A stretch of 64,000 nucleotides of DNA. Source: Rhodospirillales bacterium. GTDB lineage: Bacteria; Pseudomonadota; Alphaproteobacteria; Bin95. The DNA is taken from contig JAYQLI010000035.1 in assembly GCA_038143065.1 (NCBI GenBank), forward strand, positions 1,280,894 through 1,344,893, written 5' to 3'. Under the pieces are notes generated by a model, which ran no database searches, was not told where the DNA came from, and saw only the letters and a list, made by a program, of their open reading frames with translations. A program made the translations under genes and the position numbers. Each line of letters opens with the position of its first letter. The first letter of the stretch is position 1. Shown piece after piece: positions 2,441 to 16,438 of this stretch.

Positions 2441-3561
2441 AAGACATCTCCCTTCTGGACTCCCTTTATCCTATCCCATTCAGCCTGAACTTCTGGGTCC
2501 GGATCATTACGATACATCAAATTTGCCCTCTCAGGTTCCAATCGGCTGAGAGCCCAGATAGCGGCACGGCGAACTAAAGGTGATGAGTCAGTGGTTAATT
2601 GAGCGGCGGTTCCTGCCAGCTCTGGTAAATCGGAGTTACCAATAGCAATGGCAACATTTCTTACAAACCTATCACGGCCTGTGCGCTTGATCGGAGATCC
2701 TGCAAATACCTGCCTGAACTCTGCATCATCAAGGCCAGCTAGCTCTTTAAGCTTAGGAACTTGAAGCTCAACTCGGGGCCAAAGAGCGGGTTCTTTTGGT
2801 AATTCTGCAAATTTATTCCAAGGGCATACAGCCAGGCAGTCGTCGCAGCCATAAATCCGTCCCCCCATAGCCTCCATTAAGTCGTAATCAATATGGCTCT
2901 TATGTTCGATTGTAAGGTAGGAGATACAGCGACGAGCATCTAGCTTATAGGGCGCAACAAATGCATCAGTTGGACATGCTTCCAAGCAATTCCGACATGA
3001 TCCACAATGGTCTAATTCCACCGCATCAGGCGTTAGGTCAATATCCGTAAACATCTCACCTAAAAAAAACCAATTACCTAGCCCGCGGCTAACGAGGTTC
3101 GAATGTTTACCCTGCCAACCTATTCCTGCGCGCTGAGCAAGGTGCTTTTCTAATACAGGGGCGGTATCAACAAAAATTTTTACTTGCGCTCCATGAACCT
3201 CATTCGTCCATCTAGCTAAACGCTTCAAACGCGATTTCAAAACGTCGTGATAATCTCTAACTGTTCGCGCGTAGACGCTTATCTCGCCACTTTCAGGATC
3301 GCTAACAGAAGAAAGAGGGTTTTCTGGTGGCGCATAACTCATAGCAACAACAACTACGCTACGAGCTTCAGGCCATAACTTTTTAGGGTCCGCTCGCCTT
3401 TCAGCATGAGTTGCCATCCAACCCATATCGCCATGCATACCAGACTTTAAGTACTCAGCTAGCCAAGCCTTTGCATCCTCTGAGCTCTCCGCTGGAGCAA
3501 ACCCGATTGCATCAAAACCTAGCGCTAAACCCTCTGAGCGGATCGCTGACGTTAGATCCAC
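2437..3561 (-). CDS. queG: Epoxyqueuosine reductase
   Basis: DTAPVLEK, GWQGKH, CGSCRNCLEACPT, RCISYLTIE and YGCDDCLAVCPWN motifs. Confidence 0.95.
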   Translation of the reverse strand: MDLTSAIRSEGLALGFDAIGFAPAESSEDAKAWLAEYLKSGMHGDMGWMATHAERRADPKKLWPEARSVVVVAMSYAPPENPLSSVSDPESGEISVYARTVRDYHDVLKSRLKRLARWTNEVHGAQVKIFVDTAPVLEKHLAQRAGIGWQGKHSNLVSRGLGNWFFLGEMFTDIDLTPDAVELDHCGSCRNCLEACPTDAFVAPYKLDARRCISYLTIEHKSHIDYDLMEAMGGRIYGCDDCLAVCPWNKFAELPKEPALWPRVELQVPKLKELAGLDDAEFRQVFAGSPIKRTGRDRFVRNVAIAIGNSDLPELAGTAAQLTTDSSPLVRRAAIWALSRLEPERANLMYRNDPDPEVQAEWDRIKGVQKGDVL

Positions 3562-12539: not shown

Positions 12540-14827
12540 ATGACCCGTCCACTTGAAGGTATCACCATTCTTGATCTGTCTACTGGTAATGCCGGAGCAT
12601 TCGCCACAATGCTCCTATCTGATTGCGGTGCGAGAGTTTTACGAGCTGTTGGTAAGGCCAATCCCCTTTTTAGGGATGGCGGGTTTGTAATTTGGGATCG
12701 TGGCAAAGAAGCAATTGATCTAGACATTGATGCTCCTGGTGCCAAAGAAAAGATCGAAGCGTTGCTTGCTGAGGTAGATGTTCTAATCGAAGACTTTGCC
12801 CCTTCATCTCAACGCCAATTATTAGTGGATCGGGAGAGGATAAAGGCTCTAAACCCACGCATAGTGGCCTGTGCCATTACTGCTTACGGTCGTCATGGTC
12901 CATTAAAGGACGACTTGCCTATAGATGATCTTATTCTGGCTCGCTCTGGCGTACTGGGAGGGATGCCTGGGTTTCGAGAAGCGCCAATCCACACCGTACA
13001 CCCTCTCCCAAGTGTTGGAGCTGCTATTTTTGCATGTATTGGTGTTGCAGCCAGTCTACTTGCACGCGAAGAAACTGGCCGTGGGAGAATGGTTGAGACC
13101 TCATTACTGGCGGGCGCACTACTTTATCACCCCAAGGTTGAAGGCGAAGGCATAGCAAAGCATGTATTCCAAACCCACCCATCAGGATCTGCACCTTTCT
13201 ACAGTGTTTACGAGTGCCAAGATGGAAATTACATCCAACTCGGCTGTGTCCATGAAGGCTTCATAGCTCGCTGTGCCCACCTCATGGGGATTTCCGATTA
13301 CGTGAAGGAGCCCCGCTTCCTTCAGGGTCGAGGCGGAGCTACTCCTGAAGATGAGCAGGAAATGCGAGACTGCCTGACAGAAATAATGAAAACTCGAAAA
13401 GCAGATGAGTGGGCTGCTGCCCTGGAGGAGGCTGATGTTCCCTTTGCTCCGGCGAGACACGCGGAAGAAGGACTAGAGGACCCACAGGTCATTCACAACG
13501 GCATGGTAAAAACGCTTGAGGATCCTGACCAAGGCTCCGTAGTTCAGATGGGGACTCCAATTATATTTACCAAGACCGCTGTATCCCCCAAGGACCAAGG
13601 GCAGCCCATATTTCAGAAGCTCCTAGTGCAAAACGAACCACAAATAGTGTGATTACATCCGAGACTGTAGATCCCCCTCCCCTTCAAGGAGTTCGCATTT
13701 TGGAGATCACAAATCTAATAGCCGGACCAACTTGCGGCAGATTATTAGCTGACCTTGGGGCTGATGTGATAAAGTTAGAGCCTCCTGGGGGCGATATATC
13801 TAGACCAATAGGGCGAACATATTTCTATAACGTTAACTTTAACAAACGTTCTATTTGCTTTGATGCTTCAAAACCTGGAGCAAAGGCAGCAATCCAAAAA
13901 ATTGCAGCTACGTGTGATGCCGTGCTCGCAAATCTCAGACCAGGCGCCACCGAGCGCATGGGCTTAGGTCCAAGCGTAAACCCAAATTTAATAGAAATGC
14001 ATATTACAGGCTACGGATGGACAGGCCCATATTCAAAACGACCTGGCATCGATCCTTTGGCTCAGGCACTGATGGGGCTTCAACGCGCTCAAGGTGGCCC
14101 CGATAACCCACCGTCTTTCCCTGCTCAACTTGCTCCCACTGACTATACTACTGGAGCTCTTGGTGCCTTTGGCATGGTCACAGCGCTTTATCACTTAAAG
14201 CGAACTGGGGAACCACAGAGGATTGAAAGCAATCTTCTGAACGGGGGCGTTGTGCTATCATCCGCATGGTTTAGTCGCTATCGAGACAAACCTAAAAGAC
14301 CTTTAGCCGATCAACAACAATTTGGTCTTAATGCATATCATCGTCTCTACAAGACAAGTGATGGATGGATATATACTGCGGCTGATACTGAAGATCAGCG
14401 CATTGCATTGAAAAAATTCCTGGATCTTGTGAATTCAGATGATCAAGGGTTACAGCACCCAGCACGTTCACCATTTGCTGAGGCTGCTTCAGAACAATTT
14501 AAAACTATGACCACAAATTTAGCTCTACAAAGTCTCAAAAAAGCGGGCATACCTGCCGCTGAAGCACAGCCAGGTGACAGCCAATATTTTCTTCAAGACC
14601 AAAATTCTCATGACAATAATTTTGTGTGTGAACGCATCCACCCCAAAGTCGGCAAGATGCAAACTGCTTGGAATTATATACAGTTCAGTCAGACGGGTCT
14701 TACGGCTGGTAAACCCACTCCTCTGCTTGGAGAGCAAACAGCAGAAGTGCTTGCAGAGGCTGGTTTGGATCAAAGTGATATCAAAAATCTATTCATGTCG
14801 GGTGCCGCAATAGCAGAGGAGCCTTGA
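12540..14827 (+). CDS. Fused two-domain class III (CaiB/BaiF) CoA-transferase (frameshift near 13590)
   Basis: Two CoA_transf_3-type halves (RPLEGITILDLS; PLQGVRILEITNLIAGP); the frame of the second half is open back to ~13590, giving a linker. Confidence 0.8.
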
Positions 14828-14879
14828 TGAGACCTATTTTCAATGCAAAGCTCTGCTATCAGTATTTAAGGAGTCCAGT

Positions 14880-15497
14880 GTGGCAGATCCGTTAACTCTT
14901 GAAATCTTCACGGACTATGTTTGACCGTGGTGTTATCTCAGCACCGGGCGTGTTGAAAAACTCAAAGAGACCTTTGACATTCAAGTGAAGTGGGTACATT
15001 TCCCCCTCCACCCTGAAACACCGATGGAAGGCCGTTCATTAAAAGACCTTTTTGCCGGGCGCGATTACGATCCAGAGAAAATGTACCAGCAAATGAAAGT
15101 ACGTATGGATCAGGAGGGCCTCCCCTACGGCAAGCGCACTCACACCTACAATAGCAGGCTAGCTCAAGAATTGGGCGTTTGGGCTGACACACAAGTTGAC
15201 GGCGAAAAACTGCATGACCTCCTCTATCGAGCTTATTTCGTACATTCAAAAAATATTGGTGACATCAACGTACTAATAGATCTTGTTGCGGAGGCTGGCC
15301 TAGACGTTGGAGATGCAAAAAAAGCTCTTGAAGCTCGCAGCTTTAAAGAAGTTGTTGATGCTGACTGGAATAAATCAAAACAATATGGGGTAACTGGTGT
15401 ACCTACATTTGTAGCGAGCGGCTACGGAGTTGTTGGCGCTCAACCTTATGAAACCTTAGAAGCATTGTTAGATAAAGTAGGTGCGGTAAGACGATAG
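14880..15497 (+). CDS. DsbA/FrnE-family thiol oxidoreductase selenoprotein (UxxC)
   Basis: AAGGAG RBS at 14868-14873 and GTG at 14880; reads ...EIFTDYV-TGA(14922)-PWCYL in frame with ORF 14985-15497, which has GVTGVPTF and GAQPYE. Confidence 0.88.
14938..14956 (+). promoter_or_regulatory. Bacterial SECIS-like hairpin
   Basis: TCAGCAC-CGGGC-GTGTTGA: 7-bp stem with one G-U pair and a G-rich loop starting 20 nt after the UGA. Confidence 0.7.
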
Positions 15498-15592
15498 GTA
15501 GAGAGCGGTTAGTTAAAACCGCGATCGCTGAGGATATCAAATTCGTCAAATTGCAACCAACCCATCAATGACCCCTGGGGCCATTTTCGTTC

Positions 15593-16438
15593 TCAAGAAT
15601 CTGCCTTCTTGAGGCCGTCATGTCTCAAACAGAAGTCCCTCAGCTGCTCGCAGCAGACCGCCGGAAATAGCAATTGGACCATGTGATAGTTCGTCGGGAG
15701 TTTCCGCATCGAGAAATCGGAGAGGCTGTTTCGCAAAAGTCTTTCTTGAGATTTTGACGTGATCTGACCCTCTCCCGGGTAGAGACCCAAGACCGGGACT
15801 TTTACGTCTTTCAGAATATCCGTAACGTTGGCTTGGTTGACAATGCCTGACATCCGGACCTGGAGGTCTGGATCGCCTTTGGAGAATTCGTTGACATACC
15901 ATTCATACAGACCGGGATTTTCATCAGCTGGCAAGCGAGTGATTTTGGTGGTTTCCGAAACCCACTTACGGATTCCAAGTTTTTCCATAGCCTCGATCCG
16001 AGAAGCATAGCCAAGAGCATAGCGCTCCTTCATTTCTTCTTCGATGAATACCGGTGTCGATACCAACGTTAGCGTCTTGATCAGTGATGGGTGCTGCGCA
16101 GCCAGAAGCAGTCCCAAGATACCACCCATTGATTCGCCACAGAAATGGACCTTATAAACCCCTAATGCACCGATGACTTTGAGCAAATCTTCGATAAGGC
16201 TTTCAACGCTGAGGTCGACAGCTGATCCATCAGCGAAAATGGACTTTCCCAACCCTCGCATGTCAGGTCGTACGATCCGGAAATCCCTGCTCAGATAAGG
16301 CACCCACTGATACCAAAACTGGGCGTTTCGTCCATTACCGTGCAACAAAATTAAAACCGGGCGGCGTTCCCAAGGGTCAGTGTGATCGTCGACCTCATAA
16401 TTGAGGGGGGTCCCATCATTTGCTTGGATCATAGGCAT
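15593..16438 (-). CDS. Alpha/beta hydrolase
   Basis: LLHGNG, PDMRGLGKS and GESMGG nucleophile elbow. Confidence 0.85.
   Translation of the reverse strand: MPMIQANDGTPLNYEVDDHTDPWERRPVLILLHGNGRNAQFWYQWVPYLSRDFRIVRPDMRGLGKSIFADGSAVDLSVESLIEDLLKVIGALGVYKVHFCGESMGGILGLLLAAQHPSLIKTLTLVSTPVFIEEEMKERYALGYASRIEAMEKLGIRKWVSETTKITRLPADENPGLYEWYVNEFSKGDPDLQVRMSGIVNQANVTDILKDVKVPVLGLYPGEGQITSKSQERLLRNSLSDFSMRKLPTNYHMVQLLFPAVCCEQLRDFCLRHDGLKKADS

What the first reader, a model, noticed from the sequence alone, without database searches (positions are those of the whole stretch)
14868..15497. Hidden selenoprotein: DsbA/FrnE-like oxidoreductase with U-P-W-C motif and SECIS-like hairpin
Seen: the ORF track starts at 14985 and lacks an active site. 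An AAGGAG RBS and a GTG at 14880 open the same frame, reading VADPLTLEIFTDYV-TGA-PWCYLSTG. The TGA (14922-14924) sits where FrnE/DsbA proteins carry the attacking Cys of D.x.CPWC. A 7-bp hairpin TCAGCAC-CGGGC-GTGTTGA follows, with its G-rich loop 20 nt after the UGA. Known: bacterial Sec insertion uses such an in-CDS hairpin, and DsbA-like UxxC selenoproteins have been described from marine metagenomes. Inference: this alphaproteobacterium decodes UGA as Sec and may have a wider, unannotated selenoproteome. This break is not an indel and falls at the catalytic residue, unlike the errors elsewhere in the window.
Basis: partly seen in the sequence, partly recalled or inferred. Interest (0 to 1): 0.85.

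Follow-up and report, generated by a model that had tools for sequence, protein, structure and literature searches.

The report
Selenocysteine FrnE/DsbA-like oxidoreductase gene
This is a real but mis-called gene for a small cytoplasmic thiol-disulfide enzyme whose attacking cysteine is replaced by selenocysteine, and it belongs to a selenoprotein family already described from marine metagenomes.

Summary
AAGGAG lies at 14868-14873 and GTG at 14880. An in-frame TGA at 14922-14924 sits in D-Y-V-U-P-W-C, and a 7-bp hairpin follows with loop CGGGC starting 20 nt after the UGA.

Read through, the 205-aa product is a complete DSBA domain (E 2.3e-33). Its model fits Deinococcus FrnE (TM 0.85-0.89).

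The TGA is not an error:
- It is kept in 79 of the 80 best genome loci, in 64 of 78 metagenome loci, and in all 12 orthologs found among 401 sampled genomes of the class.
- Cys homologs carry TGY at that codon.
- The hairpin shows compensatory changes at three pairs and is missing from the Cys forms.

selA, selB, selD and tRNA-Sec lie on the same 2.86-Mb contig as the gene.

At least 12 further candidate selenoprotein genes turned up in the genome (UGSC, GrdB-like, AhpD-like, Grx, Prx).

However, DsbA-like (COG2761) UxxC selenoproteins with such SECIS elements were reported in 2005. This is therefore a new member of a known kind, usually truncated by gene callers. The substrate is unknown.

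The parts
14868..14873 (+). Shine-Dalgarno-like AAGGAG, 6 nt before the start codon
   Evidence: Sequence read. Orthologs in six relatives also show GGAG-type motifs 6-9 nt before their ATG (upstream sequences printed).
14880..15497 (+). Full coding sequence of the FrnE/DsbA-like selenoprotein: 205 residues plus the TAG stop, with a GTG start
   Evidence: Translation with TGA=U. Pfam DSBA PF01323, E 2.3e-33, residues 6-197. Orthologs start with ATG at the equivalent codon. AlphaFold model pLDDT 95.6. Foldseek match to D. radiodurans FrnE, TM 0.85-0.89.
14922..14924 (+). Sec codon (UGA), residue 15, at the attacking position of the U-P-W-C redox motif
   Evidence: TGA in 79 of the 80 best genome-contig loci, in 64 of 78 metagenome loci and in 12 of 12 orthologs of a class-wide sample. 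73 full-length database homologs read DYVCPWC.
14922..14933 (+). Redox motif U15-P16-W17-C18
   Evidence: P16, W17 and C18 are invariant in alignments A1 and A4. The motif aligns to CPWC of FrnE 5cnw. In the model it lies at the N-terminal end of helix 16-19, directly after strand 5-11.
14938..14956 (+). SECIS upper stem-loop: a 7-bp stem (14938-14944 with 14950-14956) and apical loop C-G-G-G-C (14945-14949)
   Evidence: 82 Sec-form sequences: 98.6% of cells paired. Three pairs carry changes on both sides (UA:60/CG:22, AU:80/UA:2, AU:76/UA:1). 0 of 500 shuffles reach this; slid controls give 23-43%. RNAalifold recovers it. Cys forms make only 2-5 of the 7 pairs.
14932..14961 (+). Tentative full SECIS element: a 3-bp lower stem (14932-14934 with 14959-14961) enclosing the upper stem-loop
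   Evidence: Predicted by RNAalifold. The middle pair joins two synonymous third positions (TGY of Cys18, AAR of Lys): UA:40, CG:32, UG:4, 6 unpaired. Its GC/AT association (phi 0.83) is the highest of 153 third-position column pairs; the next is 0.57. Relatedness of the sequences is not controlled.
15393..15404 (+). T172-G-V-P175 loop, at the position of the cis-proline loop of thioredoxin-fold enzymes
   Evidence: T172, G173, V174 and P175 are invariant in A4. The loop lies directly before strand 176-179 of the model. The cis state of the proline was not examined.
14985..15497 (+). The truncated 170-aa ORF that table-11 ORF finding reports, which lacks the active site
   Evidence: In the protein database the window's own products are even shorter fragments (158 and 134 aa, P0001 and P0048).

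Best explanation
The region 14880-15497 is one gene for a 205-residue cytoplasmic thiol-disulfide oxidoreductase of the FrnE subfamily of DsbA-like proteins. The N-terminal, attacking cysteine of its CPWC motif is replaced by selenocysteine (U15-P-W-C18).

Proposed decoding: UGA 14922-14924 is read as Sec. The mRNA hairpin starting 14 nt downstream (7-bp stem, loop CG[G/U]GC) would recruit SelB carrying Sec-tRNA(Sec) to the ribosome. The genome encodes selA, selB, selD and tRNA-Sec on the same contig.

Proposed chemistry: the enzyme would cycle between a selenolate/thiol state and a U15-C18 selenenylsulfide, and would reduce or shuffle disulfides in cytoplasmic substrates.

Shown here: gene structure, family, conservation of the TGA, SECIS covariation and presence of the Sec machinery. 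Inferred: actual Se insertion, the direction of the redox reaction and the substrate. How the enzyme is regenerated is unknown, because the protein lacks the C-terminal CxxxxC tail of Deinococcus FrnE.
For: Family and fold:
- Pfam DSBA covers residues 6-197 across the TGA.
- PDB sequence match to FrnE 5cnw, E 1.4e-28, with the U aligned to the first Cys of CPWC.
- Model pLDDT 95.6; TM 0.85-0.89 and rmsd 2.1-2.3 to FrnE structures.

Conservation of the TGA:
- In 8 of 9 same-genus genomes plus one genome of another family.
- In 79 of 80 genome-contig loci.
- In 12 of 12 orthologs among 401 sampled genomes of the class.
- In 64 of 78 metagenome loci, even though the query was a Cys-form alignment.

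Selection on the protein before the TGA: third codon positions vary there while the residues are kept (alignment A2).

Cys/Sec pairing: 73 of the 120 best database clusters read DYVCPWC.

SECIS:
- It fits the model quoted in PMC13188914: loop of 3-9 nt, G in the first two loop positions followed by G or U, 16-37 nt from the UGA.
- Three pairs show compensatory changes.
- Changes that break the competing hairpin B are compensated in hairpin A.
- Cys forms lack the hairpin.

Sec machinery:
- tRNA-Sec 71.5 bits, above the cut-off of 47, and called tRNA-SeC (tca) by ARAGORN.
- selA 496 bits, selB 435 bits, selD 280 bits, all above cut-off and all on contig C35.

TGA is otherwise an ordinary stop here: it ends 543 of 1492 open frames of at least 300 codons.
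Against: - No experimental proof of selenium insertion exists.
- No synteny points to a substrate. The neighbouring CoA-transferases recur in only 8-10 of 80 loci, and the largest neighbour cluster covers 17 of 80.
- An alternative hairpin B (14928-14934 with 14940-14946) is 98.8% paired across the alignment, though without double changes. It is part of the free-RNA minimum-energy fold for the window sequence.
- The selA HMM match runs through one TAA, and the selA ORF is 429 aa. The C-terminal end of SelA may therefore be truncated or carry an assembly error.
- The assembly scores 5.5% contamination and contains frameshift-like breaks in other genes.
- The sequences used for the covariation counts are related, so cell counts overstate independent events.
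Confidence: 0.93

Rival explanations
1. The TGA is a sequencing or assembly error, or a recent nonsense mutation, in an ordinary Cys-type FrnE gene. The locus would then be a miscalled or dead gene.
For: This assembly does contain broken-looking genes. A DctM and an IlvD homolog have garbled stretches around an in-frame TGA, and two hydantoinase B homologs carry a TGA inside the domain. Contamination is 5.5%.
Against: The same TGA is present in 79 of 80 independent genome loci, in 64 of 78 metagenome loci, and in contigs of four separate runs. Protein-level conservation holds on both sides of it. A covarying hairpin is found only in the TGA forms.
Confidence: 0.01
2. UGA is a true stop. A 14-residue leader peptide is made and the real product is the 170-aa protein that starts at GTG 14985 and has no active site.
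For: Table-11 ORF finding gives this ORF. Gene callers report such truncated forms: 41 of the 120 best database clusters start after the TGA.
Against: The truncated product would lack strand 1, the redox motif and helix 1 of a fold that the full sequence models at pLDDT 95.6. The 14 upstream codons, the start codon and the Shine-Dalgarno site are conserved. The truncated start points differ between callers and lineages (M49, M36, M/V23).
Confidence: 0.02
3. UGA is read through as another residue (Trp, Cys, Gly or Arg), either by near-cognate suppression or by a reassigned genetic code, and not as Sec.
For: Six of the 120 database clusters print R, W or G at this position. This shows only that some pipelines translate it in other ways.
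Against: TGA ends 543 of 1492 long open frames in this genome, so it is not reassigned. A complete Sec machinery is present. A SECIS-type hairpin at the canonical distance is under selection. The position is the catalytic Cys, where Sec/Cys exchange is the known pattern (PMC1088965).
Confidence: 0.03

Closest known systems
DsbA-like selenoprotein family (COG2761, UxxC), Sargasso Sea metagenome, Zhang, Fomenko and Gladyshev 2005 (PMC1088965). Listed as 'DsbA-like protein form 1, PF01323, UxxC' in the 2026 review PMC13188914.
   Same: Same Pfam family (PF01323). Same UxxC motif, with Sec at the first position. A SECIS hairpin in the coding sequence directly after the UGA. Marine and environmental bacteria. 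Widespread Cys homologs (passages and tables seen).
   Different: I could not see the published sequences or the SECIS figure, so identity of the subfamily is inferred from COG, Pfam and motif only. Added here: the genome context (Sec machinery on the same contig), the near-fixation of Sec in this ortholog group, the compensatory changes and the possible 3-bp lower stem.
FrnE of Deinococcus radiodurans (DR_0659; PDB 5cnw, 5cp1, 5co3, 5coh, 5xwh), a cytoplasmic disulfide reductase/isomerase
   Same: 34-35% identity over the whole fold, TM 0.85-0.89. CP(W/F)C-type motif at the same place. No signal peptide. drFrnE has insulin-reduction and disulfide-isomerase activity, and its mutant is sensitive to cadmium and diamide (PMC8945050, section 2.4).
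   Different: Sec replaces the first Cys. The protein is 205 aa and its only cysteine is C18, so the C-terminal CxxxxC tail that regenerates drFrnE is absent. S. roseofulvus FrnE and D. maricopensis FrnE also lack it.
Bacterial SECIS elements (E. coli fdhF type; bSECISearch consensus model)
   Same: A stem-loop inside the coding sequence. The apical loop is 5 nt with G at position 2 followed by G or U. 20 nt lie between the UGA and the loop, within the 16-37 range. The upper stem is 7 bp, within the 4-16 range (model as quoted in PMC13188914).
   Different: No Rfam family matched the region, even at E up to 10. No bulged U is apparent. SelB binding was not tested.
Cys-type paralog in the same genome (G000:C35:2235699-2236316, minus strand)
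   Same: DsbA/FrnE-like, with a CPWC motif (translation); 29% identity over residues 4-198.
   Different: An ordinary Cys form with no in-frame stop. Paralogs of this kind occur in most relatives searched.

Membership tests
Bacterial selenoprotein gene (UGA decoded as Sec via SelB and SECIS) | In-frame TGA aligned with a conserved, functionally important Cys in homologs | tested here: met
   73 of the 120 best database clusters read DYVCPWC where the window has DYV-TGA-PWC. 14 metagenome loci and L091 carry TGT or TGC at that codon.
Bacterial selenoprotein gene (UGA decoded as Sec via SelB and SECIS) | TGA-containing orthologs in other organisms, with protein conservation on both sides of the TGA | tested here: met
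   79 of 80 genome loci, 12 of 12 orthologs of the class sample and 64 of 78 metagenome loci. The upstream codons vary at synonymous sites only.
Bacterial selenoprotein gene (UGA decoded as Sec via SelB and SECIS) | Downstream stem-loop fitting the bSECIS model: loop 3-9 nt, G in the first two loop positions, 16-37 nt from the UGA, upper stem 4-16 bp | tested here: met
   7-bp stem, loop CG[G/U]GC, 20 nt from the UGA. 98.6% of cells paired, with 3 covarying pairs. Model text from PMC13188914. No dedicated SECIS predictor was available.
Bacterial selenoprotein gene (UGA decoded as Sec via SelB and SECIS) | Genome encodes selA, selB, selD and tRNA-Sec | tested here: met
   All are above the curated cut-offs and all lie on contig C35. 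Caveat: the selA match includes one TAA, and the selA ORF is 429 aa.
Bacterial selenoprotein gene (UGA decoded as Sec via SelB and SECIS) | Selenium actually incorporated at the UGA | not testable with these tools
   Needs 75Se labelling or mass spectrometry.
DsbA-like selenoprotein form 1 (PF01323, UxxC) | PF01323 domain with Sec as the first residue of the UxxC redox motif | tested here: met
   Pfam E 2.3e-33; motif U-P-W-C.
[quoted passage not shown] | DxxUP motif in a protein described as crotonase/enoyl-CoA hydratase family | tested here: not met
   The string D-Y-V-U-P does fit DxxUP. However, the protein is a single 205-aa DSBA domain with no crotonase hit, and it keeps the resolving Cys (UxxC). 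I saw only the table row of the review.
FrnE subfamily of DsbA-like proteins | DsbA-like thioredoxin fold with a CP(W/F)C-type motif at the start of helix 1 | tested here: met
   Foldseek TM 0.85-0.89 to five FrnE entries. The motif aligns to CPWC. It lies at the helix N-terminus in the model.
FrnE subfamily of DsbA-like proteins | Cytoplasmic location (no signal peptide or membrane anchor) | tested here: inconclusive
   Only 4 residues precede strand 1 in the model, which leaves no room for a signal peptide. No signal-peptide predictor was run.
FrnE subfamily of DsbA-like proteins | C-terminal CxxxxC motif (present in many members, not all) | tested here: not met
   The only cysteine is C18. 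According to PMC8945050, some FrnE proteins also lack the motif, so it does not define the subfamily.
FrnE subfamily of DsbA-like proteins | Disulfide reductase or isomerase activity | not testable with these tools
   Needs insulin-reduction, DTNB or scrambled-RNase assays on protein made with Sec.

The most novel reading that the evidence does not exclude
Within this widespread FrnE-like ortholog group, Sec may be the prevailing and perhaps ancestral state, with Cys forms arising as repeated secondary replacements. The coding sequence after the UGA (peptide YLST[G/V]R[V/I]EK) would be locked by a two-stem SECIS. That hairpin may also serve as a recombination or insertion site, since one genome (L084) carries three tandem copies of the first 74 nt of the gene, each ending in the SECIS loop.
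Probability: 0.15. Interest if true: 0.45.

Novelty: new member of a known kind. Interest (0 to 1): 0.3.

Why it matters
This is a clean, well-supported case of a selenoprotein gene that standard gene finding truncates. 41 of the 120 best database clusters start after the UGA, and 6 print another residue there. It therefore serves as a check on annotation.

It also shows that this alphaproteobacterium keeps a full Sec machinery for a set of at least 13 candidate redox selenoproteins. No formate dehydrogenase above the family cut-off was found.

The biology itself is not new. Sec in the attacking position of a thioredoxin-fold CxxC motif, and in this family specifically, has been in print since 2005.

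Tried and rejected
- Rfam scan of 14000-16000 at E up to 10 gave only two chance snoRNA-like matches and no SECIS family.
- NCBIfam gave no family above cut-off. The best was a thioredoxin-like (seleno)lipoprotein model at 36 bits against a cut-off of 190.
- A pair between the first and last loop bases (14945 with 14949) was my own mistake, since C faces C. It is unpaired in 79 of 82 rows, and I dropped it.
- Hairpin B (14928-14934 with 14940-14946) was considered as the functional element. I judged it less likely because it has no double changes, because changes that break it are compensated in hairpin A, and because its 5' arm starts 3 nt after the UGA. By general knowledge of ribosome footprints, which I did not test, that arm would lie inside the ribosome when the UGA is in the A site.
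- Synteny as a clue to the substrate led nowhere.
- A phylum-wide search for Cys forms with P0020 found only the window's own gene among 401 genomes.
- SelW-like (PF10262) was not found. FdhA (TIGR01553) gave only sub-cut-off matches without stops. ArsC has no stop.
- My ab initio TGA scan listed 502 candidates. Most high scorers are adjacent in-frame genes such as L15/SecY, or frameshift-like breaks in DctM, IlvD and hydantoinase B. L225, L227, L229, L230 and L231 gave no domain spanning the TGA.
- The RNA-library contigs that span the gene are not proof of transcription.
- Supplements of the papers were not opened. They may hold the published DsbA-like sequences.

Full report
WHAT IS IN THE SEQUENCE. 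AAGGAG lies at 14868-14873 and GTG at 14880. Fourteen sense codons follow, then TGA at 14922-14924, and the frame stays open to TAG at 15495-15497. Table-11 ORF finding reports only the 170-aa piece that starts at GTG 14985. With TGA read as Sec, the 205-residue product matches Pfam DSBA (PF01323) over residues 6-197, E 2.3e-33. The UGA sits in D-Y-V-U-P-W-C. The hairpin TCAGCAC/CGGGC/GTGTTGA occupies 14938-14956, with 20 nt between the UGA and the loop.

FAMILY AND FOLD. The closest solved structure by sequence is FrnE of Deinococcus radiodurans (5cnw/5cp1, E 1.4e-28). The U aligns to the first Cys of its CPWC motif. An AlphaFold model built on a 59-row alignment has mean pLDDT 95.6. Foldseek places it on the five FrnE entries at TM 0.85-0.89, rmsd 2.1-2.3 and 34-35% identity. 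Next come SCO1869, YjbH, kappa-class GSTs and HCCA isomerases. In the model, strand 5-11 leads directly into the helix that starts at residue 16, so U15 sits at the helix N-terminus, the usual place of the nucleophile in thioredoxin-fold enzymes. T172-G-V-P175, invariant in the alignment, precedes strand 176-179. Only four residues precede strand 1, so a signal peptide is unlikely; no predictor was run. C18 is the only cysteine, so the C-terminal CxxxxC of drFrnE is absent. According to PMC8945050 section 2.4 (passages read), Streptomyces roseofulvus FrnE and D. maricopensis FrnE also lack it. [quoted passage not shown]

THE TGA IS NOT AN ERROR. A six-frame search of 60 relatives plus the own genome found high-identity copies (65-98%) in ten genomes. 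These were 8 of 9 same-genus genomes, one genome of another family, and the own genome. Each copy had one TGA, and in all ten it is the same codon, DYV*PWC. The ninth congener, 87% complete, showed only a 33% paralog.

Scanning one genome per species with an alignment of the family gave 599 matching stretches, of which the tool kept the best 80. Of these, 75 read DYV-TGA-PWC, 4 read DYI-TGA-PWC and 1 (L091) reads TGC. The titles are mostly alphaproteobacterial MAGs (Rhodospirillales, Stellaceae, Defluviicoccus). A few are labelled Gamma- or Betaproteobacteria or Methylomirabilota, and one is a cultured species, Desertibaculum subflavum.

In an even sample of 401 genomes of the class, 12 have an ortholog at E of 1e-40 or better (10 of 308 genera), and all 12 carry one TGA. 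A metagenome scan queried with an alignment of Cys forms returned 80 loci. The motif was found in 78 of them: 64 with TGA and 14 with TGT or TGC.

In the protein database, the 120 best clusters split as follows:
- 73 are full-length forms reading DYVCPWC (58-67% identity).
- 41 start after the UGA.
- 6 print R, W or G at the position.

Contigs of two DNA runs from different studies, and of two RNA-library runs, span 14922-14924 at 95-99% likeness with no listed difference there. Eight less-supported differences were not printed by the tool. RNA-library contigs are not proof of transcription.

In the 15 nt before the TGA, variation across 82 sequences is concentrated at third codon positions while the residues are kept. 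That is the signature of a translated region.

THE SECIS. I aligned 78 nt around the UGA from 82 distinct Sec-form sequences. These were the window, four relatives, 73 of the 75 DYV loci (two identical rows dropped) and the four DYI loci.

Three pairs carry changes on both sides:
- 14942 with 14952: U-A 60, C-G 22, none unpaired.
- 14943 with 14951: A-U 80, U-A 2.
- 14940 with 14954: A-U 76, U-A 1, 5 unpaired.

None of 500 column shuffles reaches the observed values, and sliding the partner by 1-3 columns gives 23-43% pairing. The commonest double change couples a synonymous Ser codon change (AGC/AGT) to a Val/Ile replacement (GTT/ATT).

RNAalifold, run without my structure, recovers six of the seven pairs and adds a 3-bp lower stem, 14932-14934 with 14959-14961. 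The middle pair of that stem links two synonymous third positions, TGY of Cys18 and AAR of a Lys: U-A 40, C-G 32, U-G 4, 6 unpaired. This association (phi 0.83) is the strongest of all 153 pairs of variable third positions; the next is 0.57. It therefore exceeds the background GC3 correlation. I mark the lower stem as tentative because the relatedness of the sequences is not controlled.

A competing hairpin B (14928-14934 with 14940-14946) is also 98.8% paired, but it has no double change. The three sequences that break it are compensated in hairpin A. Hairpin A with the lower stem is more stable than B in 66 of 82 sequences. When only the part from 14937 onward is folded, the 7-bp hairpin is the minimum-energy structure in 74 of 82.

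At the homologous columns, the 15 Cys-form genes make only 2-5 of the 7 pairs. The 64 metagenomic Sec forms make 7 pairs (58 sequences) or 6 pairs (6 sequences).

The element fits the bacterial SECIS model as quoted in the 2026 review PMC13188914 (passages read): apical loop of 3-9 nt, upper stem of 4-16 bp, G in the first two loop positions usually followed by G or U, and 16-37 nt from the UGA. No Rfam family matched.

THE MACHINERY. All parts lie on contig C35, the 2.86-Mb contig that also carries the window.
- tRNA-Sec: 71.5 bits against a cut-off of 47, and called tRNA-SeC (tca) by ARAGORN.
- selA: 496 bits.
- selB: 435 bits, ORF of 630 aa.
- selD: 280 bits, a Cys-type SelD with an extra N-terminal part.

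One caveat applies. The selA match runs through one TAA and the selA ORF is 429 aa. I did not resolve whether this is a short truncation, an assembly error or an alignment overrun.

TGA ends 543 of 1492 open frames of at least 300 codons. It is therefore a normal stop in this genome, and a reassigned code is excluded.

WIDER SELENOPROTEOME. I ran a hexamer-based scan of all in-frame TGAs. I then fetched 20 candidates and checked them with Pfam. I also ran four family searches of the genome and inspected two extra regions. This gave 12 further candidates, all on C35:
- Four UGSC-family proteins (PF24696, motif UGSC).
- Two GrdB-like proteins (PF07355, UPxC), plus a third with the same motif but no Pfam hit.
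- Two CMD/AhpD-like proteins (PF02627, CxxU).
- One glutaredoxin-domain protein (UTSC).
- One peroxiredoxin with T-R-G-U.
- One AhpC/TSA-like protein with W-U-S-F-C.

Motif types agree with those tabulated for these families in PMC1088965. I did not test conservation of these TGAs in relatives, so they remain candidates.

EVOLUTION AND CONTEXT. A FastTree of 138 Sec forms, 86 Cys forms and the own-genome paralog as outgroup needs 9 Sec/Cys changes, of which at least 5 are forced by well-supported branches. Rows shorter than 170 or 190 aa and exact duplicates were left out. The direction of the changes was not tested. Neighbouring genes are not conserved, so the gene mostly stands alone and its context gives no substrate.

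COMPARISON WITH WHAT IS KNOWN. PMC1088965 (2005; passages and tables read) reports nine DsbA-like (COG2761) selenoprotein genes with a UxxC motif and a predicted SECIS from the Sargasso Sea. PMC1794560 lists DsbA-like selenoproteins in several sequenced bacteria (tables read). The 2026 review lists 'DsbA-like protein form 1, PF01323, UxxC'. The window's gene meets the features of that family. It does not fit 'form 2', which is described as a crotonase-family protein.

VERDICT. It is a new member of a known kind. The enzymatic role, a cytoplasmic disulfide reductase or isomerase working through a selenenylsulfide, is inferred from FrnE and from the general chemistry of UxxC thioredoxin-fold proteins. 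The substrate and the recycling system are unknown.

Noticed in passing
G000 contig C35 (outside the window). TGA at 2125825 (+), 915583 (-), 1743815 (-), 109347 (-): Four UGSC-family (PF24696) genes with an in-frame TGA in the motif U-G-S-C. The domain spans the TGA, and stems of 7-9 bp with G-first or G-second loops lie 17-19 nt downstream.
   Followed up: partly
G000 contig C35. TGA at 2092865 (-), 1681328 (-), 2335338 (-): Two GrdB-like (PF07355) genes with U-P-x-C, and a third gene with the same L-U-P-V-C-H-Q motif but no Pfam hit.
   Followed up: partly
G000 contig C35. TGA at 262586 (-), 2363431 (-), 894762 (+). Also regions 357675-357977 (-) and 3111-3413 (-): Two CMD/AhpD-like genes with CxxU, a glutaredoxin-domain gene with U-T-S-C, a peroxiredoxin with T-R-G-U (an extra stop lies 8 codons upstream of the conserved part) and an AhpC/TSA-like gene with W-U-S-F-C.
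   Followed up: partly
L084:1670-4074: One related genome carries three direct copies of the first 74 nt of this gene (ATG to the SECIS loop), spaced 1245 and 1086 nt apart. Only the last copy continues as the gene. The spacers hold small ORFs rich in CxxC pairs. This occurred in 1 of 160 loci examined. It might mark insertions at the hairpin.
   Followed up: partly
Database proteins P0007, P0008, P0075 (R); P0015, P0049 (W); P0077 (G): Full-length homologs that print Arg, Trp or Gly where the Sec codon stands, while keeping the YLST[G/V]R peptide typical of the Sec forms. These are probably TGA translated under another code or by a tolerant gene caller, but real CGA, TGG or GGA codons are not excluded.
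   Followed up: no
G000:C12:49694-51094 (-), C35:31337-33178 (+), C35:1642100-1643758 (+), C9:11996-12640 (-): DctM and IlvD homologs whose Pfam domain spans an in-frame TGA with garbled sequence around it, and two hydantoinase B homologs with a TGA inside the domain. They look like frameshifts, assembly errors or pseudogenes, not selenoproteins.
   Followed up: no
G000:C35:517788-518672 (selD) and 594751-596061 (selA): SelD is Cys-type and sits in a 508-aa ORF with about 170 extra N-terminal residues that resemble part of a pyridine-nucleotide oxidoreductase (by eye). The selA HMM match reads through one TAA, and the selA ORF is 429 aa.
   Followed up: no
window 12540-14827: Two family III CoA-transferase genes (PF02515) lie directly upstream, overlapping each other by 4 nt. 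The second ends in TGA 52 nt before the selenoprotein start. This pairing recurs in only 8-10 of 80 related loci.
   Followed up: partly
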